Source of the DNA: a virus
Lineage: Duplodnaviria; Heunggongvirae; Uroviricota; Caudoviricetes
Virus record (IMG/VR): IMGVR_UViG_2565956730_000004
Direction: 5' to 3' (one strand)
Length of the DNA: 30,222 bases
The position numbers and the translations under genes are program-made. The notes beneath the pieces were generated by a model. That model did not search any database. It was not told where the DNA came from and saw only the letters and a list, made by a program, of their open reading frames with translations. Of this stretch, positions 547 to 29,488 are shown piece by piece (positions within the stretch are counted from its first letter, which is position 1; each line of letters opens with the position of its first letter).

Positions 547-775
547 TCTGTTGAGCCTCAATATTCGCCGTTTACTTCAGCGTAAAAAAACATCAATTCC
601 TACAGTTGGGCAGTGGTACACCACGCCTGCAGGGCATGTTCTACGTGTTAGCCTGGTTGACCGTGAATGTCAGAAGGTGATTTGTGAACCGCTGGGCCGT
701 AATTACCGCGTCAGTATGCCGCTTATAGCCTTTCGCTCCGGAAAAAACATGAAGCATCTCGGAGGTGCAGCATGA
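539..775 (+). CDS. Hypothetical small early protein (78 aa)
   Basis: ATG 539 overlaps the upstream stop and its own stop overlaps the next start (ATGA at 772-775), typical translational coupling in a phage operon. No recognisable motif. Confidence 0.5.
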   Translation: MLNLLSLNIRRLLQRKKTSIPTVGQWYTTPAGHVLRVSLVDRECQKVICEPLGRNYRVSMPLIAFRSGKNMKHLGGAA

Positions 776-1590
776 GTATGGAGCTGATGGTTAAAGCGAT
801 GAAAATTCGAGTGGGTAATCCATTGCGAAAACTGGTTCTGATCAAGCTGGCTGATAATGCCAGCGATCAGGGTGAGTGCTGGCCCAGCTACCAGCATATT
901 GCTGACCAGTGCGAGATTAGCAAACGTTCTGTGATGAATCATATTGCGGCCCTTTGTGAGTCCGGGCTGGTAAAAAAAGTCACCCGGAAAGGTGAAAAAG
1001 GTAACTCAAGTAATATCTATCTCCTTCATCTGGATGGTGCAGGAGATTCACTAGGGGGTAGTGCAAATAATTCACTATCTGGTGCAGCAAATTCACCAGG
1101 TAGTGCAGGAGTTGCACCAGGGGGTAGTGCAGGAGATTCACCCAGAACCAGTCACTCTTTTGAACCAGTCAAAGAACCAGTCAATGAACCAATAGCTTTT
1201 GGTGCATCTGCTGATGAGTCTGTGCGAGTTCGTTCAAACCGACCGGAATACTCTCCGGAGTTTGAGCAGGCATGGCTGGCATATCCCAAACGTGCTGGTG
1301 GCAATTCAAAATCTGCAGCCTTCAAAGCCTGGAAAGCCCGTTTGAATGAGGGGGTAAACCCCGAAACCATGCTGGAAGGTGTGAAACGCTACGCGGGCTG
1401 GGTATCTGCGATGGGTAACAGCGGCACACAATTTGTGAAACAGGCTGTCACGTTCTTTGGTCCGGATCGTCATTTCGAAGAATCCTGGGAAGTTCCTGCG
1501 GTATCTGCAGCCAGACGCGAGGACCCGTACTTCAAAGCCAGTTACGACAACGTGGACTACAGCCAGATCCCGGCAGGATTCAGGGGGTGA
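772..1590 (+). CDS. Phage replication initiator: N-terminal winged-helix DNA-binding domain, repetitive Gly/Ser/Ala linker, C-terminal DnaT-like (primosomal protein I) domain
   Basis: RBS GGAGGTG 8 nt upstream of ATG 772. N-terminus (KLVLIKLADNASDQGECWPSYQHIADQCEISKRSVMNHIAALCESGLVKK) looks like an HTH replication-initiator domain; C-terminal end (..DYSQIPAGFRG) matches the DnaT C-terminal signature (..SQIPPGFRG) as recalled. Iteron-like repeats lie inside the gene. Confidence 0.8.
   Translation: MSMELMVKAMKIRVGNPLRKLVLIKLADNASDQGECWPSYQHIADQCEISKRSVMNHIAALCESGLVKKVTRKGEKGNSSNIYLLHLDGAGDSLGGSANNSLSGAANSPGSAGVAPGGSAGDSPRTSHSFEPVKEPVNEPIAFGASADESVRVRSNRPEYSPEFEQAWLAYPKRAGGNSKSAAFKAWKARLNEGVNPETMLEGVKRYAGWVSAMGNSGTQFVKQAVTFFGPDRHFEESWEVPAVSAARREDPYFKASYDNVDYSQIPAGFRG
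1036..1141. repeat. Five tandem ~22-bp iteron-like direct repeats (consensus roughly GGTGCAGGAGATTCAC) inside the replication-initiator gene; putative phage origin
   Basis: Units at about 1036-1051, 1059-1074, 1081-1096, 1102-1118 and 1125-1141; units 1 and 5 share a perfect 15-mer (GTGCAGGAGATTCAC). A second short repeat GAACCAGTCAA occurs twice at 1162-1185. Confidence 0.6.
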
Positions 1591-2081
1591 TCATGAGTCT
1601 TTTGAATGAAGTTCAGAAATTCATTGAAGCCCATCCGGGGTGTACTTCCGGAGACATTGCGGATGCTTTTGCTGGTTACTCACGGCAGCGCGTTCTGCAG
1701 TCAGCAAGCAAGTTACGTCAGAGTGGGCGTGTGGCTCACCGTTGTGAAGGGGATACACGCAGACATTTCCCGCGCCTGACTGAGAGAGCGCAGGAGCCGG
1801 AACCACAACCTGTTCGTGAAACCAGACCTGTGCGCAATTTCTATGTCGGCACTAACGACCCCCGGGTGATTTTGTGCCTGACCCGCCAGGCTGAAGAACT
1901 GGAGTCAAGGGGCTTATACCGTCGTGCTGCAACCGTGTGGATGGCGGCATTCCGTGAAAGCCACTCCCAGCCAGAACGAAACAATTTTCTGGCGCATCGT
2001 GAGCGGTGCTTACGGAAAAGCAGCAAGCGCGCTGCATCGGGTGAAGAGTGGTATCTGTCAGGGAATTACGTGGGGGCTTAA
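1587..2081 (+). CDS. Putative regulator: N-terminal winged-helix-like region with a PerC-like C-terminal motif
   Basis: ATG 1587 overlaps the upstream stop. C-terminal segment (LESRGLYRRAATVWMAAF) resembles the PerC-family motif (..AGLWRRAA.W..) as recalled; assignment is from memory only. Confidence 0.55.
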   Translation: MIMSLLNEVQKFIEAHPGCTSGDIADAFAGYSRQRVLQSASKLRQSGRVAHRCEGDTRRHFPRLTERAQEPEPQPVRETRPVRNFYVGTNDPRVILCLTRQAEELESRGLYRRAATVWMAAFRESHSQPERNNFLAHRERCLRKSSKRAASGEEWYLSGNYVGA

Positions 2082-3462: not shown

Positions 3463-4272
3463 ATGAATAATCTGATGGTCATTGATGGTATTGAAGTTCG
3501 TCGTGATGCTTATGGGCGTTACAGCCTGAACGATCTGCATCGCGCAGCAGTAGCATCTGGTGCAAATGCCAGAACCAAGGAGCCAGGAAAGTTTCTTTCC
3601 AGCCAACAAACTGTTGAGCTTGTTCATGAATTGACCAACACCCAGAATTTGGGTGTTGACCCGGTGAGTGTGATTCATGGGGGAAATGAACGGGGAACGT
3701 ATGTCTGCAAGGAACTGGTTTATGCCTATGCAATGTGGATCAGCCCGTCATTCCATCTGAAGGTGATCCGTACTTTCGATATGGTAACCAGCGCACCGGA
3801 AAAATTATCCGGGCAGGCTGCTGACAAGATGCAGGCTGGTGTGATTCTGCTGGACTTTATGCGTCGGGAATTAAACCTGTCTAACTCATCTGTGCTTGGG
3901 GCTTGTCAGAAACTCCAGGAGGCTGTTGGCTTACCGAATCTGGCTCCGCGCTATGCAATTGATGCTCCTGCCGATGCACCCGATGGCTCAAGTCGCCCTA
4001 CGCTGTCACTGAGTGCACTGCTGAAGCAGTATGGTATCCGCCTGACGGCTAATCAGGCATATCACCAGATGGTGAAGCTGGGGATCGTTGAACAACGCGA
4101 ACGATACAGCCGTACCGCGATTAACAACATCAAAAAATTCTGGTCGCTGACAGCGAAAGGCTGCATGTTCGGCAAGAACATCACCAGTCCCGCAAATCCG
4201 CGCGAGACGCAGCCGCATTTCTTCGAATCCCGATTCCCTGAGCTGTTAAAGCTGCTCGATACCGTTCATTGA
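3463..4272 (+). CDS. KilA-N domain protein (antirepressor-like)
   Basis: Strong RBS AGAGGAGAA upstream of ATG 3463; N-terminus (MNNLMVIDGIEVRRDAYGRYSLNDLHRAA...) is KilA-N-like. Confidence 0.75.
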   Translation: MNNLMVIDGIEVRRDAYGRYSLNDLHRAAVASGANARTKEPGKFLSSQQTVELVHELTNTQNLGVDPVSVIHGGNERGTYVCKELVYAYAMWISPSFHLKVIRTFDMVTSAPEKLSGQAADKMQAGVILLDFMRRELNLSNSSVLGACQKLQEAVGLPNLAPRYAIDAPADAPDGSSRPTLSLSALLKQYGIRLTANQAYHQMVKLGIVEQRERYSRTAINNIKKFWSLTAKGCMFGKNITSPANPRETQPHFFESRFPELLKLLDTVH

Positions 4273-6166: not shown

Positions 6167-6323
6167 TGATGTCAATTGTGTTTTTAAGGCTCTCCTTCCT
6201 TAAAGTATGTTGTACAAAAAACTGGCAGCCAGCTACGCTCATTTTGAAAAAGTGACACCCTTCAATGTTTCTTTTGAATGGAATTGCTACCCATAAATCT
6301 CTATCAAAAACAGGAGAGCATAT

Positions 6324-6566
6324 ATGGTGGAGCGTTGTTCTGTTTGTGAGCAGTCATTAAGTTATTCACGAGAAGTTGAACAAGATGGCGTTGAATATAA
6401 ATCTTGCCCAAAATGTTCTGCTGATGCCGGAGTGCACGTTTTTTATAAAACAATAGACTTTGGTTATAGGGATATGGGAGACGGAAGGCATATCGTTCAG
6501 TCATGGTGTCCGGCTTGTCGTTCTGGTGAAAAACCGTCTATACCACCAGCATTTAAATGTTGTTAA
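6324..6566 (+). CDS. Small Cys-rich zinc-ribbon-like protein (80 aa) in the Q-to-holin slot
   Basis: Good RBS AGGAGAG 5 nt upstream of ATG 6324. Four CxxC-type pairs (CSVC, CPKC, CPAC, C-terminal CC). Visibly more AT-rich than flanking phage genes. Followed by a strong terminator. Confidence 0.55.
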   Translation: MVERCSVCEQSLSYSREVEQDGVEYKSCPKCSADAGVHVFYKTIDFGYRDMGDGRHIVQSWCPACRSGEKPSIPPAFKCC

Positions 6567-6584
6567 CTCAATGAATTATAAAAA

Positions 6585-6612
6585 GAGGCTGCCTGTGGGC
6601 GGCCTTTTTTGT
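6585..6612 (+). terminator. Rho-independent terminator after the zinc-ribbon ORF
   Basis: AGGCUGCC / GGCGGCCU stem (8 bp including one G-U), tetraloop UGUG, then UUUUUU. Confidence 0.7.
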
Positions 6613-6697
6613 GCACTACGCAACTTTTGCGACTCAGCGCTATAACCAGCTTCTTTCCCTTCACTCGTTGCACTTCCGATAACCGGAGGTGGGAATT

Positions 6698-7039
6698 ATG
6701 AAAATGCATAACGATCCTCATTCCTGGTCTGACTTACTTGAATTGTTACAGAGCTGGTGGCGTGGAGACACACCGCTGGGCGCAGTAATTATGTCGATCG
6801 TTATGGCTGGCTTGCGCATTGCCTATTTTGGCGGTGGTGGTGGTTGGAAGCGAAAAACGCTCGAGATTTTGCTCTGCGGCGCTCTGACGCTGACTTTTGC
6901 ATCCGCTCTTGAGTATGTCGGATGGCCTAAATCGCTTTCTGTTGCCATTGGTGGTGGCGTTGGGTTGATCGGTGTCGATGCTATTCGTGGGGCTGCAATG
7001 AGAGTAATCGGTAACAAGTTTGGTGGCTCTAAGGAGTAA
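6698..7039 (+). CDS. S: Holin, lambda S-like, with Met-Lys-Met dual-start motif
   Basis: RBS GGAGGTGGG upstream; begins MKMH.. like lambda S (MKMPEKHDLL..); hydrophobic helices; Gly-rich C-terminus (..AIRGAAMRVIGNKFGGSKE). Confidence 0.8.
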   Translation: MKMHNDPHSWSDLLELLQSWWRGDTPLGAVIMSIVMAGLRIAYFGGGGGWKRKTLEILLCGALTLTFASALEYVGWPKSLSVAIGGGVGLIGVDAIRGAAMRVIGNKFGGSKE

Positions 7040-7042
7040 TTT

Positions 7043-7519
7043 ATGCAGGTACTAAATTCCCAGCGTAAAGCTTTCCTTGATATGGTGGCTTGGTCAGAAG
7101 GAACGGATAACGGACGACAACCGACACGTAACCACGGTTATGACGTTATTGTCGGTGGTGAACTCTTCACTGATTACTCCGATCACCCTCGCAAACTTGT
7201 CACGCTAAACCCAAAACTCAAATCAACAGCAGCCGGGCGCTATCAGCTTCTTTCCCGTTGGTGGGATGCCTATCGTAAGCAGCTTGGTCTGAAAGACTTC
7301 TCTCCCAAAAGTCAGGACGCTGTGGCATTGCAGCAGATTAAAGAGCGTGGCGCTTTACCGATGATTGACCGCGGTGATATCCGTCAGGCTATCGACCGTT
7401 GCAGCAATATCTGGGCTTCACTGCCGGGCGCTGGTTATGGCCAGTTCGAGCATGAGGCTGACAACCTGATTGCAAAATTCAAAGAGGCTGGCGGAACGGT
7501 CAGAGAGATTGAGGTATGA
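7043..7519 (+). CDS. R: Endolysin, lambda R-type lytic transglycosylase
   Basis: Nearly colinear with lambda R as recalled (..[54 protein letters not shown]..); catalytic Glu within WSEGTD. RBS AAGGAG. Confidence 0.9.
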
Positions 7520-7983
7520 GCAGAGTAACCGCGATTATCTCCGCTCTGGTTATCTGCATCATCGTCTGCCTGTCATGGGCTGTTAATCATTACCGTGATA
7601 ACGCAATCGCCTACAAAGAGCAGCGCGATAAAAAAGTCAGTGAGCTGAAGCAGGCGACCGCCACCATTACTGACATGCAGCAACGCCAGCGTGCTGCTGA
7701 TGCACTCGATGCTAAATACACGAAGGAGTTAGCTGATGCGAAAGCTGAAAATGATGCTCTTCGGCGCAAGCTTGATAATGGTGGCAGGGTGCTCGTCAAA
7801 GGAAAATGCCCTGTGCCATCCTCAGCCGAAACCTCCGGCGCCTCCGGCATGGGCAATGATGCCACCGTCGAACTCTCTCCAGTTGCTGGACGAAACGTTC
7901 TCGGTGTCCGGGACGGAATTATCCGCGACCAAACAGCACTGAGAACGCTTCAGGAATACATCAGGACGCAATGCCTTCGATGA
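7516..7983 (+). CDS. Rz: Rz i-spanin
   Basis: N-terminus [31 protein letters not shown].. matches lambda Rz as recalled; N-terminal TM segment plus coiled-coil periplasmic domain. Confidence 0.9.
7736..7942 (+). CDS. Rz1: Rz1 o-spanin lipoprotein, embedded in the +1 frame of Rz
   Basis: RBS AAGGAG 7 nt upstream; [21 protein letters not shown].. has a lipobox (VAGC) and a Pro-rich mature region ([11 protein letters not shown]), like lambda Rz1. Confidence 0.8.
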
Positions 7984-8158
7984 TAGCGATAATTTTACTC
8001 ATCATCCTTCACATCTGGCTCTGTAGGCAGGGTGGTGATCACTTCTGGAGTGAATCCAGATTAAACATCTCATTGCTGATGCTTGAAGTTGAGCATATGG
8101 CGCGCGGTAAGGGGCTGCGTTGAGATAAGAGCCAGTTCATTACAAATACCAGGATTTA

Positions 8159-8182
8159 GCCTCGCATTCGCGGGGTTTTTTT
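8159..8182 (+). terminator. Rho-independent terminator ending the lysis cassette
   Basis: CCUCGC / GCGGGG stem (one G-U), loop AUUC, followed by seven U. Confidence 0.65.
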
Positions 8183-8192
8183 ATATCTGAAT

Positions 8193-8220
8193 TTCACAGC
8201 GCATCTCACGCGCATATTAA
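8193..8220 (+). promoter_or_regulatory. Putative sigma70 promoter for the Rha gene (-35 TTCACA, 16-bp spacer, -10 TATTAA), with direct GCGCAT repeats in the spacer
   Basis: TTCACA at 8193-8198, TATTAA at 8215-8220; spacer contains GCGCAT twice (possible operator). Confidence 0.35.
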
Positions 8221-8326
8221 CGAGAGCCTTTCAGTAAGCGAGCCTGAGAAATGCCGTTATAGGTGGCGACCTCTCTCGGGCGGCTTTTCTGTGAGACAGG
8301 CTCACTTTCTAAAAGGTAAAGACGCA

Positions 8327-8869
8327 ATGAACTACCCAACCGTTGTTAACGATATAGATTTCAGAGACCTAATTTTTGTAGCAAACAACGATCCGGTTAC
8401 AGATTCTTTTATGGTGGCAAAAGCATTTGGAAAGCTGCCGAAGAACGTAGTTCGTGACATTGAGCGAACCATAGAAGCTTGCCCTCCTGAGTTTGATACA
8501 AAGCTCAACTTTGAGCTTTGCTATAAAAACAATGAGTTACAGAATGGTAAGCCGCAAAAATTCTACCGTCTCCGCAAGGATGGGTTGATGCTTTTGGTTA
8601 TGTCCTACACCAAAAAAGAAGCAATGCGTATCAAAATTGCTTACATCAACGCATTTAACTGGATGTACGCCATGCTTCAGGTTGGTCATCGTCAATTTGA
8701 AGAAGAGAGAAATGCCGTAATGCTGGAGTACATGAAAGAGAAGGATGTTGCCAGCATGTCAGGTCGCCTGCTTAATCGCTGGGGAAAAATTAAGAAGCCT
8801 CAGCTACTGGCGAGAATTGAACGCCTTGAACAGCACGGGCAAACCGTAATTCCCGGACTCACCAATTAA
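8327..8869 (+). CDS. Rha-family phage regulatory protein
   Basis: ATG 8327 is the probable start (ORF opens at GTG 8291). N-terminal Rha-domain-like sequence (MNYPTVVNDIDFRDLIFVANNDPVTDSFMVAKAFGKLPKNVVRDIERTI..). Confidence 0.8.
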   Translation: MNYPTVVNDIDFRDLIFVANNDPVTDSFMVAKAFGKLPKNVVRDIERTIEACPPEFDTKLNFELCYKNNELQNGKPQKFYRLRKDGLMLLVMSYTKKEAMRIKIAYINAFNWMYAMLQVGHRQFEEERNAVMLEYMKEKDVASMSGRLLNRWGKIKKPQLLARIERLEQHGQTVIPGLTN

Positions 8870-9049
8870 CGGCAGTACCGCGAAACAACCCAAGCCAGTA
8901 AGTGGGGAAATAACACTGGCAGCCACTGAAAGATGAACCCCCTGCCTGATGGCAAAAAAGATTCTTTGTGGTGGCGGACTGATGGAAAGACATCGGTTAT
9001 TGCAGAGGCCATTCAATGAGTGGTCTCGACAATGGCTTATACCATGCAC

Positions 9050-9075
9050 GGGATAACTTAACTGATATCCCTTTT
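9050..9075 (+). terminator. Rho-independent terminator downstream of Rha
   Basis: GGGATA / TATCCC perfect 6-bp stem with a 10-nt loop, followed by TTTT. Confidence 0.5.
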
Positions 9076-9155
9076 AACGGATAAACGGAGCCAATAATGG
9101 CAGAAAATGTCGGTATTATGGCAGTGAAATTTGGATAAATCGGAGATTAGTACAT

Positions 9156-10126: not shown

Positions 10127-11856
10127 GCCGGAAATCTTACCCCAACGTAAATGCTGCCAATCAGTATGCCCGTGATGTCGTGCGCGGAAAGATTGTGGCC
10201 TGCCAGTTTGTGATTCAGGCCTGCCAGCGCCATCTTGATGACCTGATGGCGGAAAAAAGTAAGTCGTTTCGTTACCGCTTCGACAAGGACCTGGCTGAAC
10301 GGGCCGCCAAATTTATTCAGCTGTTGCCGCACACCAAGGGTGAGTGGGCATTTAAGAGGATGCCCATCACGCTGGAGCCGTGGCAGCTCTTTGTGATCTG
10401 CTGCGCGTTTGGCTGGGTCAATAAAGGCTCCCGGCTGCGCCGCTTCCGTGAGGTGTATACCGAAATCCCCCGTAAGAACGGCAAATCGGCAATCTCTGCC
10501 GGTGTCGCCCTGTATTGTTTTGCCTGTGATAACGAGTTCGGCGCGGAAGTGTATTCCGGTGCCACGACAGAGAAACAGGCATGGGAAGTCTTTCGCCCGG
10601 CAAGACTGATGTGTAAACGCACACCCATGCTGACGGAAGCGTTCGGGATTGAGGTTAACGCCTCAAACATGAACCGTCCGGAGGATGGTGCGCGTTTTGA
10701 ACCGCTGATCGGTAACCCCGGTGATGGTTCATCACCCCACTGTGCGGTGGTGGATGAATATCACGAGCACGCCACAGATGCGCTTTACACCACGATGCTT
10801 ACCGGGATGGGGGCGCGACGTCAGCCACTGATGTGGGCTATCACTACCGCCGGGTACAACATTGAGGGGCCGTGCTACGACAAACGGCGGGAAGTCATCG
10901 AGATGCTCAACGGCTCGGTGCCTAACGATGAACTGTTCGGGATCATCTATACCGTTGATGAAGGTGACGACTGGACCGACCCGCAGGTGCTGGAAAAAGC
11001 CAATCCAAATATTGGCGTGTCGGTTTATCGCGAATTTTTGTTAAGTCAGCAGCAGCGTGCGAAAAATAACGCCCGTCTGGCAAACGTCTTTAAAACAAAA
11101 CACCTCAATATCTGGGTGTCGGCGCGTTCGGCGTATTTCAACCTGGTGAGCTGGCAGAGCTGCGAGGATAAATCACTGTCCCTTGAGCAGTTCGAGGGGC
11201 AGCCGTGCATTCTGGCCTTTGACCTGGCGCGTAAACTGGATATGAACAGCATGGCGCGACTTTATACCCGCGAGATTGACGGTAAAACGCATTACTACAG
11301 TGTAGCCCCGCGTTTCTGGGTACCGTATGACACGGTGTACAGCGTCGAGAAAAATGAAGATCGCCGGACAGCCGAACGCTTTCAGAAATGGGTGGAAATG
11401 GGCGTTCTGACCGTTACCGATGGTGCGGAGGTGGATTATCGCTACATCCTCGAAGAGGCCAAAGCGGCGAACAAAATCAGCCCGGTCAGCGAGTCACCCA
11501 TCGACCCCTTCGGGGCGACCGGGCTCTCACATGACCTTGCTGATGAAGACCTGAACCCCATCACTATCATTCAGAACTACACCAACATGTCCGACCCGAT
11601 GAAAGAGCTGGAAGCGGCAATTGAATCGGGGCGCTTTCATCATGATGGCAATCCCATCATGACCTGGTGTATCGGCAACGTGGTCGGCAAAACCATTCCG
11701 GGTAACGATGATGTGGTGAAGCCCGTCAAAGAGCAGGCGGAAAACAAAATCGATGGTGCAGTTGCGCTGATTATGGCGGTTGGCAGAGCCATGCTGTACG
11801 AGAAAGAAGACACGCTGTCTGACCACATTGAGTCCTATGGGATCCGCTCGCTTTAA
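10123..11856 (+). CDS. Terminase large subunit
   Basis: 577 aa; ATGA overlap with the small subunit; ATPase-like and nuclease-like regions (e.g. acidic VVDEYHEH motif) in the expected order; position between small terminase and portal. Confidence 0.9.
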
Positions 11857-11867
11857 CTGAGGTAATT

Positions 11868-12050
11868 ATGATCATGCTGATTCTCGCGCCTCTGGTGGGC
11901 GTGCTGGGGGCGCTTTTGCTGGCGTATGGTGCCTGGCTGATTTATCCCCCGGCGGGGTTTGTTGTTGCCGGGGCGTTGTGCCTGTTCTGGTCGTGGCTGG
12001 TGGCGCGATATCTCGACCGTACACAGCTGTCTGTTGGTGGAGGTAAATAG
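11868..12050 (+). CDS. Small predicted membrane protein (60 aa, two hydrophobic helices)
   Basis: RBS GAGGT 6 nt upstream; [26 protein letters not shown]...[18 protein letters not shown]; stop overlaps the GTG start of the portal gene. Confidence 0.45.
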
Positions 12051-13291
12051 TGTTCTTTTCGGGATTATTTCAACGAAAAAGTGACGCACCGGTGACCACG
12101 CCAGCAGAGCTGGCGGATGCCATCGGGTTGTCCTACGACACCTATACCGGAAAGCAGATCAGCAGTCAGCGAGCCATGCGACTGACGGCGGTTTTTTCCT
12201 GCGTCAGAGTGCTGGCAGAGTCGGTCGGGATGTTGCCCTGCAATCTGTATCACCTGAACGGCAGCCTGAAGCAGAGAGCCACCGGCGAACGTCTGCATAA
12301 ACTGATCTCCACGCATCCCAATAGCTATATGACGCCGCAGGAGTTCTGGGAGCTGGTGGTCACCTGTCTGTGTCTGAGGGGAAATTTTTACGCCTACAAA
12401 GTGAAAGCATTTGGCGAAGTGGCTGAACTGCTGCCCGTCGATCCCGGTTGTGTGGTACCGAAGCTTAACAGTAGCTGGGAGCCGGTCTATCAGGTCACAT
12501 TCCCGGATGGCTCCACGGATGTACTGAGCCAGGAGGATATCTGGCATGTGCGCACGCTGACGCTGGACGGACTGGTGGGGCTGAATCCCGTCGCCTATGC
12601 CCGCGAGGCAATATCGCTGGCGGCAGCGACCGAAGAGCACGGGGCCAGACTGTTCAGCAATGGCGCGGTGACGTCGGGGGTGTTGCGTACAGAGCAGACG
12701 CTGTCAGATCAGGCTTATGAGCGCCTGAAGAAAGATTTTGAGGAGCGTCACACCGGGCTTGGCAATGCTCACCGCCCGATGATCCTTGAGATGGGGCTGG
12801 ACTGGAAGTCGATGGCGCTGAACGCCGAGGACAGCCAGTTCCTGGAAACCCGCAAGTTTCAGCTTGAAGAAATCTGTCGTCTGTTCCGGGTGCCGTTGCA
12901 CATGGTGCAGAACACCGATCGCGCCACCTTCAACAATATCGAAGAGCTGGGGCTGGGATTTATCAACTATTCACTGGTGCCGTATCTGACCCGCATCGAA
13001 CAGCGGATCAACACCGGACTGGTACGAAAAAGTAAGCAGGGCGTTTATTACGCCAAATTTAACGCCGGGGCGTTACTGCGCGGGGATATGAAGTCCCGTT
13101 TTGAAGCCTACGCCACCGGGATCAACTGGGGAATTTACTCTCCCAATGACTGCCGCGACCTGGAAGATATGAATCCGCGTCCCGGTGGGGATGTCTATCT
13201 CACACCGATGAACATGACCACGAAACCCTCCGATGGCAGTAAAGCCGGTAAGCAGAAGGATAACGCCAATGCAGACGAAACAACGTCTTGA
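12050..13291 (+). CDS. Portal protein (HK97 family)
   Basis: GTG start with RBS GGAGGT 7 nt upstream; 413 aa; located between terminase and prohead protease. Confidence 0.85.
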   Translation: MFFSGLFQRKSDAPVTTPAELADAIGLSYDTYTGKQISSQRAMRLTAVFSCVRVLAESVGMLPCNLYHLNGSLKQRATGERLHKLISTHPNSYMTPQEFWELVVTCLCLRGNFYAYKVKAFGEVAELLPVDPGCVVPKLNSSWEPVYQVTFPDGSTDVLSQEDIWHVRTLTLDGLVGLNPVAYAREAISLAAATEEHGARLFSNGAVTSGVLRTEQTLSDQAYERLKKDFEERHTGLGNAHRPMILEMGLDWKSMALNAEDSQFLETRKFQLEEICRLFRVPLHMVQNTDRATFNNIEELGLGFINYSLVPYLTRIEQRINTGLVRKSKQGVYYAKFNAGALLRGDMKSRFEAYATGINWGIYSPNDCRDLEDMNPRPGGDVYLTPMNMTTKPSDGSKAGKQKDNANADETTS

Positions 13292-13919
13292 TGTACCGCT
13301 GAGTCTGAAATCTGTCAGTGACTCCGGTGAGTTTGAAGGGTATGGCTCCGTCTTTGGTGTAAAGGACAGCCACGATGATGTGGTGATGTCCGGGGCATTT
13401 GCTGCTTCCCTGCGGGCGTGGAGTGACAGAAAAGCGTTACCTGCGCTGCTCTGGCAGCACCGCATGGATGAACCCATCGGTGTTTACACCGAAATGAAGG
13501 AAGACGATGTCGGGCTTTACGTCAGGGGACGGTTGCTTATTGATGATGATCCCCTCGCAAAACGCGCACATGCACACATGAAGGCCGGTTCGTTAACCGG
13601 CCTTTCTATTGGGTATGTCCTGAAAGACTGGGAATACGACCGGAGCAAAGAAGCCTTTCTGCTGAAAGAAATCGACCTCTGGGAAGTCAGCCTGGTGACG
13701 TTCCCGTCTAACGACGAGGCGCGGATCAGCGACGTCAAGAACGCACTGGCCCGCGGGGAAATCCCCGAACAGAAAAAAATCGAAAGAGTCCTGCGTGATG
13801 TCGGACTCTCCCGTACCCAGGCCAAAGCATTCATGGCCGGGGGCTATGGCGCACTGTCCCTGCGCGACGCTGAGGATGTGGGCTCTGCACTGAATGCACT
13901 GAAAAATCTGAACTTCTAA
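13269..13919 (+). CDS. Prohead maturation protease (HK97 family, S78-like)
   Basis: MQTKQRLDVPLSLKSVSDSGEFEGYGSVFGVKDSHDDVV.. is a typical N-terminus for this family; upstream in-frame ATG at 13233 is an alternative start. Confidence 0.85.
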   Translation: MQTKQRLDVPLSLKSVSDSGEFEGYGSVFGVKDSHDDVVMSGAFAASLRAWSDRKALPALLWQHRMDEPIGVYTEMKEDDVGLYVRGRLLIDDDPLAKRAHAHMKAGSLTGLSIGYVLKDWEYDRSKEAFLLKEIDLWEVSLVTFPSNDEARISDVKNALARGEIPEQKKIERVLRDVGLSRTQAKAFMAGGYGALSLRDAEDVGSALNALKNLNF

Positions 13920-13933
13920 TCAGGAGAAATACG

Positions 13934-15139
13934 ATGGCGGTTGATATTAAAGATGTCGAACAGGTCGCGCAGGAGCTGCAGCAGAAGTTTGACGACTTCA
14001 AAGCAAAGAACGACAAGCGCGTGGATGCGATTGAGCAGGAAAAAGGCAAACTTGCCGGGCAGGTGGAAACCCTGAACGGGAAACTCAGCGAGCTGGAAAA
14101 CCTCAAAAGCGATCTTGAAAAAGAGCTTCTTGAGCTGAAACGTCCGGCAGGTGGTGCGCAAAATAAACTGGCCACCGAGCATAAAGAAGCGTTTGTGGGC
14201 TTCCTGCGTAAAGGCCGTGAAGATGGTCTGCGCGATCTGGAGCGCAAGGCATTACAGGTGGGCACCGATGAAGACGGCGGCTATGCCGTGCCGGAAGCAC
14301 TGGATCGCAACATTCTTACCCTGCTGAAAGATGAAGTGGTGATGCGCCAGGAAGCCACGGTGATCACCGTTGGCGGTTCCGACTACAAAAAACTGGTGAA
14401 TCTGGGCGGCACGGCTTCCGGATGGGTTGGCGAGACTGACGCGCGCTCCCAGACTGCCACCTCAAAACTGGGACTGATTGAACCTTTCATGGGGGAAATC
14501 TACGGTAACCCGCAGGCTACCCAGAAAATGCTGGATGATGCCTTTTTCAACGTGGAAGCATGGATCAACAGCGAGCTGGCAACCGAATTTGCCGAACAGG
14601 AAGAAATTGCCTTTACCACCGGCGATGGTACCAAGAAGCCGAAAGGGTTCCTGGCGTATGAATCCACTGATGAAACCGATAAGGTCCGGGCGTTCGGCAA
14701 ACTTCAGCATATTGTATCCGGCGAAGCGACGGCGGTGACCGCAGACGCCATTATCAAACTGATTTACACGCTGCGTAAGGCACACCGCACTGGCGCGAAG
14801 TTCATGATGAACAACAACAGCCTGTTTGCCATCCGTCTGCTGAAAGACACCGAGGGTAACTATCTGTGGCGTCCGGGGCTGGAACTGGGGCAGCCGTCCT
14901 CTCTGGCGGGTTACGGTATCGCTGAAAACGAACAGATGCCGGATATCGCCGCTGATGCGAAAGCCATTGCATTTGGTAACTTCAAACGGGGTTACACCAT
15001 CGTTGACCGTATCGGCACCCGCATTCTGCGTGACCCGTACACCAATAAACCGTTTGTCGGTTTTTATACCACCAAGCGCACCGGCGGGATGCTGGTCGAT
15101 TCGCAGGCCATCAAACTGCTGAAGATTGCAGCGGCGTAA
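13934..15139 (+). CDS. Major capsid protein (HK97 fold) with N-terminal coiled-coil scaffold-like region
   Basis: RBS AGGAGA; N-terminal about 100 aa is heptad-rich/charged (delta-domain-like); 401 aa; directly follows the protease. Confidence 0.85.
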   Translation: MAVDIKDVEQVAQELQQKFDDFKAKNDKRVDAIEQEKGKLAGQVETLNGKLSELENLKSDLEKELLELKRPAGGAQNKLATEHKEAFVGFLRKGREDGLRDLERKALQVGTDEDGGYAVPEALDRNILTLLKDEVVMRQEATVITVGGSDYKKLVNLGGTASGWVGETDARSQTATSKLGLIEPFMGEIYGNPQATQKMLDDAFFNVEAWINSELATEFAEQEEIAFTTGDGTKKPKGFLAYESTDETDKVRAFGKLQHIVSGEATAVTADAIIKLIYTLRKAHRTGAKFMMNNNSLFAIRLLKDTEGNYLWRPGLELGQPSSLAGYGIAENEQMPDIAADAKAIAFGNFKRGYTIVDRIGTRILRDPYTNKPFVGFYTTKRTGGMLVDSQAIKLLKIAAA

Positions 15140-15145
15140 TCACTC

Positions 15146-15167
15146 AGGGGCGCGGAACCGCGCCCCT
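15146..15167 (+). terminator. Strong GC hairpin after the capsid gene (attenuator or partial terminator; no clean U-run)
   Basis: AGGGGCGCG-GAAC-CGCGCCCCT: perfect 9-bp stem with a tetraloop. Confidence 0.4.
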
Positions 15168-15187
15168 GTTCTGACGGGTGAAGAATC

Positions 15188-15388
15188 ATGATCCTGAAAC
15201 AAGATCTGAAATGGTCACCGGACGGTATGCGTGTTGAGGTCATTCGGGCCGGTGAGTATGACGACGGGGCGCTTCCTGCCCGGGTGCAGGAGATTGCACT
15301 TCAGGCTGGGTTAGCAGAGCGCGGAATCAGTACAAAAAGCAGTAAAGCGGCAAAAGAGAAAAAAGCCACGACCAGTAAAGAGGGCTGA
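15188..15388 (+). CDS. Hypothetical small protein (66 aa) with Lys-rich C-terminus
   Basis: ORF directly between capsid and connector genes with stop adjacent to the next start; weak RBS. Confidence 0.35.
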   Translation: MILKQDLKWSPDGMRVEVIRAGEYDDGALPARVQEIALQAGLAERGISTKSSKAAKEKKATTSKEG

Positions 15389-15390
15389 GT

Positions 15391-15714
15391 ATGCTTCTGA
15401 CAATGGAAGAGATTAAAGCCCAACTCCGGCTGGATGAGGATTTCGATGCTGATGACCGCCATCTGCAACTGCTGGCCTGTGCGGCGCAAAAGCGGACGGA
15501 AACGTATCTGAACCGGAAGCTCTATGCACCGGATGAAACCATTCCGGACAGCGATCCGGACGGGCTGCACCTGCCGGATGATATTCGTCTGGGGATGCTG
15601 ATGCTTATCAGCCATTTTTACGAAAACCGCTCGTCGGTTACGGAAGTGGAGAAACTCGACATGCCGCAGAGTTTTGGCTGGCTTGTCGGCCCGTACAGGT
15701 ACTTTCCGCAATGA
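15391..15714 (+). CDS. Head-tail connector protein (gp6-like)
   Basis: N-terminus MLLTMEEIKAQLRLDEDFDADD... is typical of gp6-like connector proteins; RBS AGAGGG. Confidence 0.75.
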   Translation: MLLTMEEIKAQLRLDEDFDADDRHLQLLACAAQKRTETYLNRKLYAPDETIPDSDPDGLHLPDDIRLGMLMLISHFYENRSSVTEVEKLDMPQSFGWLVGPYRYFPQ

Positions 15715-19592: not shown

Positions 19593-21417
19593 ATTTGAGC
19601 TTAAGGCGTTGATCACCGGTGTCGACAGGCTTTCTCCCGCGCTGTCGAAAATGCAAAAGAAAATCCGGGGATTTAAACGCCAGGCGGAAGAAGCGTCACA
19701 GGGTGGGCTGGCGCTTGGTGGCGGACTGGCTGCGGGTCTGACGCTTTCCCTGAAATCTTATGCCGATCAGGAAAACGCCGCCACCGGGCTGAAAGTTGCC
19801 ATGATGGATGCGAACGGTGAGGTCGGAAAGCGCTTTCAGGACATCAATAAACTGGCTATTGGTCTGGGTAACCAGCTACCCGGTACAACGGCTGATTTCC
19901 AGAACATGATGCAGATGCTGGTGCGTCAGGGGATCCCGGCAGAAAACATTCTTGGCGGTGTGGGTAAAGCGACAGCTTATCTTGCGGTACAACTGAAAAA
20001 AACACCGGAAGCGGCTGCTGAGTTTGCTGCAAAGATGCAGGATGCTACCGGAACGGCGTCAGAAGACATGATGGGGCTGTTCGACACTATCCAGAAGGCG
20101 TTTTATCTGGGCGTTGACGATACCAACATGTTGTCCTTCTTCACTAAAACCAGTTCTGTTCTGAAGATGGTGAACAAGGACGGTCTTCAGGCTGCACAGA
20201 GCCTTGCCCCCATCAGCGTCATGATGGATCAGATGGGGATGAACGGGGAGTCGGCAGGTAATGCCCTGCGAAAAGTTATCCAGTCCGGATTAAGCGTTAA
20301 GAAAATCAGGGACGTCAATAAAGTCATGGCCCGCCAGAAACTCGGGGTACAGCTCGATTTTACTGACGGCAAAGGAAGTTTTGGCGGTCTTGATAACATG
20401 TTCAGGCAACTGGCAAAGCTGCGAAAACTGACCGACGTTAAGCGAACAGGTGTACTTAAGGCAATATTTGGTGATGATGCCGAAACCCTTCAGGTGGTTA
20501 ATGCACTAATCGATAAAGGAAAGGATGGCTACGATCAGATCCAGCAGAAGATGAATAAACAGGCCAGCCTGAATAAACGTGTTCAGGCCCAGCTTGGTAC
20601 GCTGTCCAACCTGTGGGAGGCAATGACGGGGACCGCAACTAACGGCCTTGCGGCTATTGGCGGCGCATTTTCTGGTGACGCCAAAAATATCACGCAATGG
20701 CTGGGGGAGTTAGGGGAAAAATTCACGAAGTTTGCGGATGAAAATCCCCGGGTTATTCGCGGCGTCGTCGGGCTTGCTGCCGGTCTTGCGATTCTGAAAC
20801 TGGGATTGATGGGCGTTGGCGGTGCCATCAGTATTGTCAGCAGGATCATGTCGATGACGCCGATTGGCATGATTGCGACGGCGATTGCTCTGGCTGCGGG
20901 ATTAATTATCACTAACTGGGATGTTGTCGGACCTTATTTCAAGAAGCTCTGGGAAACCATTGGTCCTTATTTTGAGGCAGGTTGGGAACTTCTGAAGAAG
21001 GTTTTTGCCTGGTCGCCGCTGGGGATGGTGATCAATAACTGGGGACCGGTTGTTAAGTGGTTTCAGGATATGTGGGACAAGCTGAAGCCAATTATTGAGT
21101 GGTTTACCGACAGTTCCGGTGACACGGTCGATGCCATTAACTCTGCGCAGTGGGGCGCGGGTGCTTATGATGCTTATGGGACGGGAATACCGGCGCGGGG
21201 ATACACACCTTATCCGGCGGTGGATCCGGCTCAGTCAAACAACGCCTCCGATGCCACAGGCTCGAATCCCTTCATGATTAACAAAGCTTCTGTGCCAAAA
21301 GTTGATGGTGAGATCAAGGTATCTTTTGTGAATTCGCCTCCGGGTATGCGGGTTATGGAAACGCGATCCAGCGGTTTTGATGTCAGCCATGATGTTGGCT
21401 ATACGCGGTTCAGGTAG
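19585..21417 (+). CDS. Tail tape measure protein
   Basis: 610 aa; Ala/Gly-rich alpha-helical N-terminal half and hydrophobic Gly-rich segments in the C-terminal half; RBS AGGAGA; canonical position. Confidence 0.85.
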   Translation: MAEFELKALITGVDRLSPALSKMQKKIRGFKRQAEEASQGGLALGGGLAAGLTLSLKSYADQENAATGLKVAMMDANGEVGKRFQDINKLAIGLGNQLPGTTADFQNMMQMLVRQGIPAENILGGVGKATAYLAVQLKKTPEAAAEFAAKMQDATGTASEDMMGLFDTIQKAFYLGVDDTNMLSFFTKTSSVLKMVNKDGLQAAQSLAPISVMMDQMGMNGESAGNALRKVIQSGLSVKKIRDVNKVMARQKLGVQLDFTDGKGSFGGLDNMFRQLAKLRKLTDVKRTGVLKAIFGDDAETLQVVNALIDKGKDGYDQIQQKMNKQASLNKRVQAQLGTLSNLWEAMTGTATNGLAAIGGAFSGDAKNITQWLGELGEKFTKFADENPRVIRGVVGLAAGLAILKLGLMGVGGAISIVSRIMSMTPIGMIATAIALAAGLIITNWDVVGPYFKKLWETIGPYFEAGWELLKKVFAWSPLGMVINNWGPVVKWFQDMWDKLKPIIEWFTDSSGDTVDAINSAQWGAGAYDAYGTGIPARGYTPYPAVDPAQSNNASDATGSNPFMINKASVPKVDGEIKVSFVNSPPGMRVMETRSSGFDVSHDVGYTRFR

Positions 21418-21516
21418 TGTACAAAATGATTAATGTGTTTTTGTCTGGCATAATTTGGGTTTTCAGCTTTAAGTAGTTAATATAATCATTCCTTACAAAT
21501 GATTGAAGGGATGATT

Positions 21517-22011: not shown

Positions 22012-22031
22012 TAATTAAAAATATTAGATTC

Positions 22032-22088
22032 CCGCCACATCTTCTGCGATGTAAATAACTGACAAAGCAGATTTGGCGGGTTTTTTGT
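22032..22088 (+). terminator. Terminator-like structure after the inserted gene
   Basis: CCCGCCA (22032-22038) pairs with TGGCGGG (22075-22081), followed by TTTTTTG; the interior holds a small CATC/GATG hairpin. Confidence 0.45.
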
Positions 22089-29478: not shown

Positions 29479-29488
29479 ATAATATTAA

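What the first reader, a model, noticed from the sequence alone, without database searches (positions are those of the whole stretch)
1036..1185. Iteron array (putative phage origin) inside the replication-initiator gene
Five tandem units with about 22-bp periodicity (two helical turns) sit in the linker-coding part of the replication gene, at roughly 1036-1051, 1059-1074, 1081-1096, 1102-1118 and 1125-1141; units 1 and 5 share a perfect 15-mer. A second repeat, GAACCAGTCAA, occurs twice at 1162-1185. This mirrors lambda, where ori iterons lie inside gene O and are bound by the N-terminal domain of O. Here the initiator ends in a DnaT-like domain rather than a lambda-O-like one, suggesting a different helicase-recruitment route.
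Basis: partly seen in the sequence, partly recalled or inferred. Interest (0 to 1): 0.55.

Follow-up and report, generated by a model that had tools for sequence, protein, structure and literature searches.

The report
Phage replication origin inside initiator gene
The repeats are almost certainly the binding sites at which this SfV-like phage's replication protein starts DNA copying, a lambda-style origin hidden inside the protein's own gene, next to a 37-base DNA box that is kept almost letter-perfect in related phages across many bacterial genera.

Summary
Five 15-bp dyad units (GTGMA-N5-TKCAC) start at 1037, 1061, 1082, 1103 and 1127, against 0.22 expected by chance in 30 kb. GAACCAGTCA has three exact copies at 1145-1183.

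The repeats lie in the disordered-linker coding part of the only replication gene (772-1590, SfV orf39 type, the "Eru6" type of Stx phages).

About 200 homologous loci show the repeats are selected as DNA, not as peptide:
- The same motif occurs in both orientations and in different reading frames.
- Spacing stays at 21-24 bp.
- Arms are conserved and spacers are not.
- Each recognition-helix type has its own unit sequence.
- Natural chimeras keep N-domain and repeats together.
- Some relatives carry lambda O's own C-domain behind this module.

The box starts exactly 2 nt after the last unit and is the local GC minimum. Its synonymous codon sites are 97% identical, against 40% in the N-domain.

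The "DnaT-like domain" is only a 9-residue C-terminal tail (SQIPAGFRG).

Verdict: a lambda-style intragenic iteron origin in a different initiator family. This is a new member of a known kind. Binding and origin activity are inferred, not shown.

The parts
772..1590 (+). Replication-initiator gene (272 aa), homologue of SfV orf39 / cdtI orf46 / the Stx-phage 'Eru6' HTH_36 protein. The whole origin lies inside it.
   Evidence: ORF. PHROG phrog_270 'replication initiation protein' at 3e-88. Pfam HTH_36 over aa 17-67 at 1.8e-11. 98-99.5% nucleotide identity to SfV, cdtI, mEp460, Stx2c phages and Stx2a_WGPS2.
772..1035 (+). Coding region of the N-terminal winged helix-turn-helix domain (aa 1-88). 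This is the presumed iteron-binding domain. The recognition helix is at aa 51-63 and the beta-wing at aa 67-85.
   Evidence: AlphaFold2 model with pLDDT 80-92 and the secondary structure listed. Foldseek returns winged-helix proteins, including the DnaD N-domain and RepA_N initiators. Helix residues 50, 52, 55 and 56 covary with iteron class.
1035..1143 (.). Iteron array of five dyad-symmetric units, GTGMA-N5-TKCAC, extended to 19 bp as T-R-GTGMA-N5-TKCAC-Y-A. Cores lie at 1037-1051, 1061-1075, 1082-1096, 1103-1117 (a perfect palindrome, GTGCA/TGCAC) and 1127-1141. Spacings are 24, 21, 21 and 24 bp.
   Evidence: 5 observed against 0.22 expected. Family-wide conservation of arms, orientation flips, frame changes and 21-24 bp spacing.
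1120..1124 (.). GGGGG run between the penultimate and last iteron. A second GGGGG run lies at 1054-1058.
   Evidence: Sequence. A G5 or C5 run, on either strand, sits at this position in all iteron classes.
1142..1190 (.). Conserved origin box. The family consensus is CC-AGAAYCAGTCAC-TCTTYT-GAAYCAGTCAAT-GAACC (37 nt). In this window one 12-bp unit is duplicated. GAACCAGTCA copies lie at 1145, 1162 and 1174. It is the presumed unwinding or loading element next to the iterons.
   Evidence: The box has 0-3 mismatches out of 27 in most of 88 loci. Identical-codon fraction is 0.970, against 0.396 in the N-domain. Conservation has sharp edges at -2 and +34, GC is 0.40 against 0.60 in the adjacent iterons, and the top strand is G-poor. 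The box starts exactly 2 nt after the last unit in 138 of 140 arrays. It occurs only with this N-domain family.
1036..1242 (+). Coding region of the disordered linker (aa 89-157), which carries the iterons and the box.
   Evidence: pLDDT is 30-46 over aa 91-157. Homologues differ in length in steps that match unit gain and loss.
1243..1587 (+). Coding region of the small helical C-terminal domain (aa 158-272). Its family is unknown and it is the presumed host-replisome recruitment domain.
   Evidence: Helices at aa 162-225 with pLDDT 56-78. No Pfam match at E<=10. No PDB sequence match. It is one of at least 11 alternative C-domains joined to the same N-domain/iteron/box module.
1561..1587 (+). 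C-terminal tail SQIPAGFRG, 8 of 9 residues identical to the extreme C-terminus of E. coli DnaT (SQIPPGFRG).
   Evidence: (I/V)PxGFRG tails end 53 of 190 family members, spread over two unrelated C-domain types.

Best explanation
Proposed mechanism. The segment 1035-1190 is the replication origin of this SfV-like temperate phage. It is built like lambda's ori but uses a different initiator family.

1. The early-right transcript produces the 272-aa initiator.
2. Dimers of its N-terminal winged-helix domain bind the five 19-bp dyad-symmetric iterons. The iterons are spaced about two helical turns apart, so the dimers lie on one face of the DNA and form an O-some-like nucleoprotein complex.
3. The complex is held in fixed register with the adjacent 37-nt box, which begins 2 bp after the last iteron. 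The box is comparatively A+T-rich, strand-asymmetric and conserved. The duplex is opened there.
4. The replicative helicase is brought in through the initiator's C-terminal domain.
5. This phage encodes no loader or helicase. The C-domain and its DnaT-like tail would therefore recruit the host DnaB-DnaC machinery directly.

What is shown: the repeats, their geometry, DNA-level selection, co-inheritance and covariation with the N-domain, the conserved box, the interchangeable C-domains with their partners, and the absence of phage loader or helicase genes.

What is inferred: binding, dimer stoichiometry, unwinding at the box, and the role of the tail.
For: (1) The motif is non-random: 5 matches against 0.22 expected, all within the array.

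(2) Selection acts on DNA, not on the peptide. Class-A arrays from 63 loci contain 283 units in all four orientation/symmetry states (95 forward, 65 reverse, 86 perfect palindromes, 37 other). 68 of 220 spacings are 22 or 23 bp, so one DNA motif encodes GAADS, VQQIH or SESPAP in different units. Spacing nonetheless stays at 21-24 bp. The first unit of Morganella phage IME1369_02 is the exact reverse complement of the window's unit 1.

(3) A non-circular test supports this. Loci were grouped only by recognition-helix signature and DNA was indexed only by distance from the box. Each helix type shows its own conserved arms at the same coordinates, and the spacers vary. Mutual information between unit class and residue peaks in the recognition helix (aa 52: 0.90, aa 55: 0.95, aa 56: 0.82 bits).

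(4) Natural chimeras exist. P0065 (phi24B-type) and P0069/P0072 (RothD-type) carry a foreign N-domain together with its matching repeats, joined to the window-type C-domain.

(5) The module sits in front of at least 11 different C-domains, each paired with a matching partner gene: lambda-P family, IstB/DnaC-like, DnaB helicase or Toprim primase-helicase. One of those C-domains is lambda O's own (40% identity, E = 2e-23). The module therefore occupies the place of lambda O's N-domain plus ori.

(6) Box: identical-codon fraction is 0.970 against 0.396. It is the GC minimum at 0.40. Its register with the last iteron is fixed in 138 of 140 arrays.

(7) The iterons and box are encoded in a disordered linker, as in the lambda paradigm. 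There the ori lies mid-gene O and consists of iterons plus an AT-rich tract, and two iterons plus the AT-rich tract suffice for unwinding (PMC7466680). Lambda's own iteron spacings are 20, 24 and 23 bp.

(8) The complete SfV genome has no other annotated replication gene.
Against: There is no experimental evidence of binding or origin activity for any member of this family in the literature I could search.

The box is only moderately A+T-rich (60%). Its strict sequence conservation suggests specific recognition rather than a generic unwinding element, so its role is uncertain.

In this particular window all unit spacings are multiples of three. Taken alone, the window cannot separate a DNA repeat from a peptide repeat, so the argument rests on the homologues.

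Covariation between helix and iteron class is confounded by shared ancestry.

Some relatives have only two units (250-aa proteins), and I do not know whether those elements replicate.

No DnaA boxes, IHF sites or GATC clusters flank the array. This neither helps nor hurts the case.
Confidence: 0.8

Rival explanations
1. The repeats are only a low-complexity Gly/Ser/Ala/Pro linker. They were generated and homogenised by replication slippage, have no DNA-level function, and the origin lies elsewhere.
For: In this window every spacing is a multiple of three and the array encodes a G(S)AGDS(P/L) repeat within a disordered linker. Copy number varies in nature, as slippage would produce.
Against: Across homologues the peptide is not conserved but the DNA motif is. 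It occurs in both orientations and in different frames, and 22- and 23-bp spacings are common. Arms are conserved while spacers are not, and the units have dyad symmetry. Spacing is held at 21-24 bp whatever the frame. Unit sequence tracks the recognition helix.
Confidence: 0.04
2. The units are real binding sites for the initiator but act mainly as operators. They would provide autoregulation, a transcriptional roadblock, or copy-control 'handcuffing', and would not be the site where replication starts.
For: Dyad-symmetric winged-helix sites are typical operators. Iterons in plasmids also act in copy control (established knowledge of iteron plasmids). Nothing here measures initiation.
Against: The sites lie in the middle of the gene, not at its promoter. 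They are locked in register to a conserved box at the local GC minimum. The module replaces lambda O's N-domain plus ori in front of a genuine lambda-O C-domain and in front of loader or helicase partner genes. No other candidate origin element was seen. The motif occurs nowhere else in the 30-kb window.
Confidence: 0.08
3. The 37-nt box is conserved mainly as a homologous-recombination joint. In this view it is a 'linker' for swapping initiator N- and C-modules between phages, and is not a functional part of the origin.
For: The box sits exactly at the boundary between the co-inherited N-domain/iteron block and the interchangeable C-domains. Its conservation has sharp edges. Its length is about that needed for efficient homologous recombination (established knowledge).
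Against: Near-perfect identity is held in hosts from about 40% to 63% GC, which is hard to sustain by second-order selection for evolvability. Its fixed 2-nt register with the last iteron and its low GC and strand asymmetry point to a mechanical role in initiation. Recombination at the box is more likely a by-product of its conservation.
Confidence: 0.08

Closest known systems
Bacteriophage lambda ori / O protein (lambdoid 'origin inside gene O')
   Same: The origin lies in the middle of the initiator gene, in the part that encodes a linker between an N-terminal DNA-binding domain and a C-terminal recruitment domain. There are four to six dyad-symmetric iterons of about 19 bp, spaced 20-24 bp (PMC7466680). 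A lower-GC segment follows immediately. Iterons are type-specific and travel with the N-domain. Extra iterons lengthen the protein. Some family members carry lambda O's own C-domain.
   Different: The N-domain belongs to Pfam HTH_36 and has weak DnaD_N similarity. It is not Phage_rep_O, and BLASTP finds no similarity to lambda O. The element next to the iterons is a 37-nt sequence-invariant box of 40% GC, not a long AT-rich tract. The window phage has no P gene or other loader.
P22 gene 18 and phage L gene 18 origins (repeats inside the initiator gene, partnered with a DnaB-type helicase)
   Same: The logic is the same, and genome papers infer these origins by the same kind of sequence reasoning (PMC8022706). 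The initiator module can be paired with a helicase instead of a loader, as in the L107-type relatives here.
   Different: The repeat sequences and the initiator family differ. No conserved box of this kind is described for those phages.
RepA_N plasmid initiators of Gram-positive bacteria (e.g. pSK41 RepA) and SPP1 G38P/oriL. This comparison is recalled from memory, not read here.
   Same: A winged-helix N-domain binds iterons that lie within its own coding sequence, and the C-domain is host-specific. The RepA_N structures 4pql and 4pt7 appear among the fold matches, but with weak scores (E = 0.015-0.04).
   Different: The hosts and lineages are different. The fold match is generic winged helix. 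No sequence relationship was shown.
E. coli DnaT (primosomal protein I)
   Same: The last nine residues are 8/9 identical and C-terminal in both proteins. Some database records label family members 'primosomal protein I'. A different branch of the family (RothD type) nearly reaches Pfam's DnaT DNA-binding domain: 24.6 bits against a cut-off of 25.
   Different: The window protein's C-domain does not match Pfam DnaT (PF17948) or any solved structure by sequence. Nothing beyond the tail aligns with DnaT.

Membership tests
Lambda-type intragenic iteron origin (functional class) | Three or more tandem, dyad-symmetric repeats of about 18-20 bp, spaced about two helical turns apart | tested here: met
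   There are five units. The dyad is GTGMA-N5-TKCAC, extended to 19 bp. Spacings are 24, 21, 21 and 24 bp. In the family, spacings are 21-24 bp.
Lambda-type intragenic iteron origin (functional class) | Repeats lie inside the initiator gene, in the segment coding the inter-domain linker | tested here: met
   The array at 1035-1143 encodes aa 89-124. The model is disordered over aa 91-157.
Lambda-type intragenic iteron origin (functional class) | [quoted passage not shown] | tested here: met
   Recognition-helix classes each have their own units. Chimeras keep N-domain and repeats together.
Lambda-type intragenic iteron origin (functional class) | Repeats are constrained as DNA beyond what the encoded protein requires | tested here: met
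   Units flip orientation and change reading frame while spacing is kept. Arms are conserved and spacers are not.
Lambda-type intragenic iteron origin (functional class) | Adjacent A+T-rich DNA-unwinding element | tested here: inconclusive
   A 37-nt box follows directly and is the GC minimum: 0.40 against 0.60 in the adjacent iterons and 0.50-0.58 in the rest of the surrounding 800 nt, with a G-poor top strand. It is only 60% A+T, and it is conserved in sequence rather than merely in composition. Unwinding was not tested.
Lambda-type intragenic iteron origin (functional class) | Initiator binds the repeats, and the fragment supports replication with initiator supplied in trans | not testable with these tools
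   This needs EMSA or footprinting and an ori-cloning assay. No such data for this family were found in the searchable literature.
Lambda O protein family (Pfam Phage_rep_O N-domain plus lambda-O C-domain binding P) | Sequence homology to lambda O | tested here: not met
   Pfam gives HTH_36 and not Phage_rep_O. BLASTP against lambda O finds nothing significant. Only another branch of the family (L011 type) has the lambda-O C-domain.
Lambda O protein family (Pfam Phage_rep_O N-domain plus lambda-O C-domain binding P) | Adjacent P-type helicase-loader gene | tested here: not met
   The next gene (1587-2081) is a PerC-family regulator. The complete SfV genome has no annotated loader or helicase gene.
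DnaT (primosomal protein I, Pfam PF17948) | DnaT DNA-binding domain | tested here: not met
   The C-domain has no Pfam hit even at E<=10 or at E<=0.01. A homologue search with the C-domain returned no hit carrying a DnaT Pfam domain, although a few weak partial hits are labelled 'Primosomal protein I' by their source. The fold search returned no DnaT.
DnaT (primosomal protein I, Pfam PF17948) | C-terminal ...SQIPPGFRG tail | tested here: met
   The window protein ends SQIPAGFRG, 8/9 identical and terminal in both proteins. The function of this tail was not found in the papers read.
HTH_36 / phrog_270 phage replication initiators | Profile match above threshold | tested here: met
   HTH_36 scores 44.1 bits against a cut-off of 25. 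phrog_270 matches at 3.2e-88 over aa 3-271.

The most novel reading that the evidence does not exclude
The 37-nt box CCAGAAYCAGTCACTCTTYTGAAYCAGTCAATGAACC may not be a generic A+T-rich unwinding tract. It could be a sequence-specific initiation element shared by a whole superfamily of gammaproteobacterial phage origins. It would be read either by the nearly invariant first 48 residues of the initiator or by a conserved host factor. It would set, to the base pair, where the duplex opens, whichever helicase system the C-domain recruits. In 'initiator-solo' phages such as this one, the DnaT-like (I/V)PxGFRG tail would be a mimic peptide that plugs the phage initiator straight into the host's DnaT-to-DnaC/DnaB hand-off, bypassing both DnaA and PriA.
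Probability: 0.3. Interest if true: 0.65.

Novelty: new member of a known kind. Interest (0 to 1): 0.45.

Why it matters
This gives a concrete, base-pair-resolved candidate origin for a replication module found in SfV, cdtI, ST64B, many Stx2 phages (types 'Eru5' and 'Eru6') and phi24B/Min27. A full-length copy of the window's initiator gene occurs in about one in six complete E. coli genomes (897 of 5,426). The recent Stx-phage literature states that nothing is known about how these phages replicate (PMC8951638).

The family is a natural specificity-swap series. There are about seven iteron classes, each paired with small changes in the recognition helix. Class B, for example, differs from class A by N56R and GTGCA to GTGAC. 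That makes DNA-recognition rules directly testable.

The invariant box and the DnaT-like tail are specific handles on two questions: how an initiator with no loader of its own opens DNA, and how it recruits the host helicase.

The practical uses are in predicting incompatibility or exclusion between prophages and in building phage-derived replicons.

Tried and rejected
- Rfam scan of 500-2100: the only hit was mir-875 at 22 bits against a gathering score of 84, caused by the inverted-repeat character of the units. I rejected an RNA-element reading.
- Single-strand DNA folding of 1030-1200: z = -0.62, so there is no unusual structure.
- Promoter and terminator scan of 700-1700: no promoter-like site and nothing above shuffle expectation. 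I dropped the idea that TTGAAC in the box is a -35 element.
- DnaA-box, IHF and GATC scans: no canonical site at the array. The GATC-free stretch 866-1464 is not significant.
- PDB sequence search and Pfam on the C-domain: nothing.
- Whole-model Foldseek was dominated by generic winged-helix hits. It could not classify the low-confidence C-domain.
- The SfV genome paper (J Bacteriol 2002) is not held. I therefore could not check whether its authors noted the repeats.
- The Weigel & Seitz 2006 review of phage replication modules could not be read.
- Literature searches for the motif strings returned only unrelated primers.
- The P. fluorescens Pf-5 paper's 'iterons' concern an unrelated genomic island.
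- tRNA scan of the window: none.
- My first C-domain clustering by single linkage over-merged types. I repeated it with a coverage filter.
Full report
**1. The observation**

The sequence at 1036-1190 reads GGTGCAGGAGATTCACTAGGGGGTAGTGCAAATAATTCACTATCTGGTGCAGCAAATTCACCAGGTAGTGCAGGAGTTGCACCAGGGGGTAGTGCAGGAGATTCACCCAGAACCAGTCACTCTTTTGAACCAGTCAAAGAACCAGTCAATGAACC.

- The degenerate dyad GTGMANNNNNTKCAC matches five times in the 30,222-base window, all in the array, at 1037, 1061, 1082, 1103 and 1127.
- Dinucleotide-preserving shuffles give a mean of 0.22 matches, and none of 100 reaches five.
- Units 1 and 5 are the identical 15-mer. Unit 4 (GTGCA-GGAGT-TGCAC) is a perfect palindrome.
- Spacings are 24, 21, 21 and 24 bp.
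- Tandem Repeats Finder and the repeat finder see the same arrays.
- GAACCAGTCA has three exact copies (1145, 1162, 1174), not two, plus a degenerate fourth.

**2. The host gene and the genome**

- ORF 772-1590 (272 aa) matches PHROG phrog_270 'replication initiation protein' at 3e-88. It has Pfam HTH_36 at aa 17-67 and a sub-threshold DnaD_N match.
- The DNA is 98-99.5% identical to the replication gene of SfV (orf39), cdtI (orf46), mEp460, a series of Stx2c phages and Stx2a_WGPS2. Stx2a_WGPS2 is the reference phage of replication type 'Eru6'. The authors of that scheme state that nothing is known about the replication proteins of Eru phages (PMC8951638).
- A full-length copy is present in 897 of 5,426 complete E. 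coli genomes.
- The window as a whole is an SfV-like phage genome, 96-97% identical to SfV in blocks.
- SfV's complete annotation contains no helicase, loader or primase, so orf39 is its only annotated replication gene.
- An AlphaFold2 model built from 26 homologues gives a confident winged helix at aa 1-88 (recognition helix 51-63, wing 67-85). Residues 91-157 are disordered (pLDDT 30-46), and a small helical C-domain follows.
- The iterons encode aa 89-124 and the GAACCAGTCA region encodes aa 125-140, so both lie in the linker.

**3. Comparative test: are the repeats DNA elements or a peptide repeat?**

I collected homologous loci in three ways:
- tblastn of the N-domain against phage records (six loci fetched);
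- a scan of one genome per bacterial species (80 loci);
- a scan of viral contigs for the box (120 loci).

All loci share one layout. The conserved N-domain ends in ...SN(I/V)YxLxL. A tract of 2-8 tandem units follows, then a conserved box, then an unrelated C-domain.

The units fall into discrete classes:

| Class | Unit | Examples |
|---|---|---|
| A | GTGMA-N5-TKCAC | the window; Aeromonas, Pseudomonas, Shewanella, Xenorhabdus and others |
| B | GTGAC-ACAGA-GTCAC | Erwinia, Izhakiella |
| C | GTAGGC-N6-AGCAC | a Pseudomonas group |
| D | TGCCR-N5-TRGCA | Klebsiella RothD, Aggregatibacter S1249, Shewanella, Xenorhabdus |
| E/F | GGGCA-GGAGC-TGCCC and a GGGCGGCAGATAACC variant | phi24B/Min27; one Pseudomonas prophage |
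| G | TAKCA-N5-TGACA | one Vibrio phage |

Four results argue against a purely peptide-level repeat.

(a) Orientation. In 63 class-A loci the 283 units occur as GTGCA..TTCAC (95), as the reverse GTGAA..TGCAC (65), as the perfect palindrome (86) and as GTGAA..TTCAC (37), mixed within single arrays. The first unit of Morganella phage IME1369_02, GTGAATCTCCTGCAC, is the exact reverse complement of the window's unit 1 and encodes GESPA instead of GAGDS.

(b) Frame. 68 of 220 spacings are 22 or 23 bp. One DNA motif is therefore read in different frames (GAADS, VQQIH, SESPAP), while spacing stays at 21-24 bp, about two helical turns.

(c) Arms against spacers. I grouped loci only by the protein's recognition-helix signature and indexed DNA only by distance from the box, so no DNA motif was used for selection. 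The arms are at least 90% conserved and the 5-bp spacers are variable. Each helix type has different conserved arms at the same coordinates. The dyad extends to 19 bp, T-R-GTGMA-N5-TKCAC-Y-A.

(d) Co-inheritance and covariation. Mutual information between unit class and residue peaks in the recognition helix (aa 50, 52, 55 and 56: 0.71-0.95 of 1.42 bits), while aa 14-48 are invariant. Class B differs from class A in the helix only by N56R. Natural chimeras (P0065, P0069, P0072) carry a foreign N-domain with its own repeats joined to the window-type C-domain.

The data show the opposite.

**4. The box**

Its conservation has sharp edges at -2 and +34 relative to its first A. In the window one 12-bp unit is duplicated. 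E. coli 2014C-3011 has the unduplicated form.

- In 47 loci that are under 85% identical in N-domain DNA, from hosts of about 40-63% GC, pairs with the same amino acid use the identical codon 39.6% of the time in the N-domain. In the nine box codons AGA ACC AGT CAC TCT TTT GAA CCA GTC they do so 97.0% of the time.
- The few variable positions (4, 16, 21) are not third-codon positions, so variation ignores codon structure.
- The box is the GC minimum of the surrounding 800 nt (0.40 against 0.60 in the last iterons) and has a G-poor top strand.
- The last unit ends exactly 2 nt before the box in 138 of 140 unique arrays of five classes. The last two spacings are 21/22 then 24 bp in nearly all arrays.
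- A G5 or C5 run, on either strand, precedes the last unit in all classes.
- The box occurs in 139 of 50,697 phage records, always within an initiator gene. In viral contigs it is essentially always downstream of this N-domain family (108 of 120; the rest are mostly truncated contigs).
- It matches no Rfam family, is not promoter-like, and has no unusual single-strand fold.

**5. The C-terminal side**

- The N-domain/iteron/box module precedes at least 11 unrelated C-domain types.
- Each type is followed by its own kind of partner gene: Phage_lambda_P, IstB/DnaC-like AAA+, a DnaB-type helicase, or a Toprim primase-helicase.
- For the window type the next gene is a PerC-family regulator (median 164 aa), not a loader or helicase.
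- One C-domain type (L011) is homologous to lambda O residues 179-270 (40% identity, E = 2e-23). Nature has therefore placed this module where lambda O's own N-domain and ori sit.
- The window protein itself shows nothing significant against lambda O.

Its C-domain has no Pfam match even at E<=10 and no PDB sequence match. A homologue search retrieved no hit carrying a DnaT Pfam domain, although a few weak partial hits are labelled 'Primosomal protein I' by their source. BLASTP against E. coli DnaT aligns only the last nine residues, SQIPAGFRG against SQIPPGFRG, which are C-terminal in both proteins.

Such (I/V)PxGFRG tails end 53 of 190 family members. They occur in two unrelated C-domain types. 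One is the window type (41 of 59). The other is the lambda-O-like L011 type (12 of 13), which is followed by a DnaC-like gene. That arrangement resembles the host dnaT-dnaC gene pair. The papers I could read say nothing about the function of DnaT's tail and describe the DnaB-DnaC loading step after DnaT as unclear. Any role for the tail is inference.

A different branch (RothD type) nearly reaches Pfam's DnaT DNA-binding domain, at 24.6 bits against a cut-off of 25. This probably explains the 'primosomal protein I' labels in databases.

**6. Mechanism proposed**

- Initiator dimers bind the five dyad iterons on one face of the helix.
- The complex is held in exact register with the box, where the duplex is destabilised.
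- The C-domain, perhaps with its DnaT-like tail, brings in the host DnaB-DnaC, because this phage has no loader of its own.

This follows the lambda paradigm. There the origin lies in the middle of gene O and consists of iterons plus an AT-rich tract. Two iterons plus that tract suffice for unwinding, and extra iterons lengthen O (PMC7466680). Lambda's iteron spacings are 20, 24 and 23 bp.

Shown here: anatomy, DNA-level selection, co-inheritance with the N-domain, and modular pairing with helicase systems.
Inferred: binding, stoichiometry, opening at the box, and the host route.

**7. Rivals**

- A slippage-generated peptide linker is essentially excluded by section 3.
- An operator-only or copy-control role cannot be excluded. 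It is less likely given the mid-gene position, the locked register with the box, and the replacement of lambda's N-domain/ori.
- The box as a mere recombination joint explains its position at the module boundary. It does not explain its near-perfect identity across hosts of very different GC content, nor its fixed register. Recombination there is more likely a consequence of the conservation.

**8. Novelty and literature**

Finding repeats inside a lambdoid initiator gene and calling them the probable origin is standard practice. The phage L paper does this for lambda, P22 and L (PMC8022706).

For this initiator family I found no description of the origin, the box or the tail in the searchable literature.

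I classify it as a new member of a known kind: a lambda-style intragenic iteron origin in an HTH_36 winged-helix initiator family. Two features go beyond the lambda template, namely a sequence-invariant 37-nt box in fixed register and a DnaT-like terminal peptide in loader-less phages.

Interest is moderate. A specialist would expect iterons here. The strength and cleanness of the comparative signal, and the testable handles it offers for the uncharacterised 'Eru' Stx-phage replication types, are nonetheless useful.

Noticed in passing
window 1561-1587 (aa 264-272); L211 2979-3518 (E. coli dnaT): The initiator ends in SQIPAGFRG, 8/9 identical to the extreme C-terminus of E. coli DnaT (SQIPPGFRG). 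(I/V)PxGFRG tails end 53 of 190 family members, in two unrelated C-domain types. One of these types is followed by a DnaC-like gene, resembling the host dnaT-dnaC operon. This may be a shared docking peptide.
   Followed up: partly
window 1120-1124 and 1054-1058; all related loci at about -22 to -18 from the box: A run of five G, or five C in other iteron classes (so on either strand), sits between the penultimate and last iteron in every specificity class. No explanation was found for this orientation-independent DNA feature.
   Followed up: partly
L001 3258-3323 (phage cdtI); L003 (E. coli 2014C-3011); proteins P0001, P0008, P0030, P0055: Natural copy-number variants occur in near-identical phages: 8 units in cdtI (an exact 66-bp duplication of units 1-3), 302- and 294-aa forms, and 250-aa forms with only two units. 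There are also variants with one 12-bp GAACCAGTCAAA unit fewer or more. Whether two-unit elements still replicate is unknown.
   Followed up: partly
window 772-915 (aa 1-48): The first ~48 residues of the N-domain (...VGNPLRKLVLIKLADNAxDxGECWPSYQHIADQCE) are almost invariant across all iteron classes and host genera, unlike the recognition helix. This suggests a conserved function, such as dimerisation, box recognition or host contact.
   Followed up: no
L011, L012, L094 and relatives (C-domain after the box): This branch joins the HTH_36 N-domain/iteron/box module to a C-domain homologous to lambda O residues 179-270 (40% identity, E = 2e-23). It is followed by an IstB/DnaC-like ATPase gene rather than a lambda P gene.
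   Followed up: yes
L006 (Klebsiella phage RothD) C-domain: The RothD-type C-domain almost reaches Pfam's DnaT DNA-binding domain (PF17948, 24.6 bits against a cut-off of 25) and is followed by a lambda-P-family gene. This probably explains why databases call family members 'primosomal protein I'.
   Followed up: partly
window 1587-2081: The gene after the initiator is a PerC-family regulator (a yfdN homologue). Its GTG start at 1587 overlaps the initiator's stop codon by 4 bases. Only the last ~76 bases of the initiator gene plus yfdN are retained in about half of complete E. coli genomes, including K-12 strains, which looks like a remnant of this module.
   Followed up: no
window 3540-3660, 6169-6724, 7446-9154, 11776-15597, 21408-22074, 27390-30222: These blocks have no BLAST match to SfV, although the rest of the window is 91-97% identical to it. 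They are mosaic replacements in an otherwise SfV-like genome, and I did not examine them.
   Followed up: no
window 1059-1119: A weak Rfam match to the mir-875 microRNA precursor (22 bits against a gathering score of 84) is a chance result of the inverted-repeat character of adjacent iterons (inverted repeat 1061-1084 / 1094-1117).
   Followed up: yes
L007 3388-5264 (phi24B gene P): In phi24B the same N-domain/iteron/box module is followed by a large Toprim primase-helicase gene. Its genome paper reports that this gene contains an intein.
   Followed up: no
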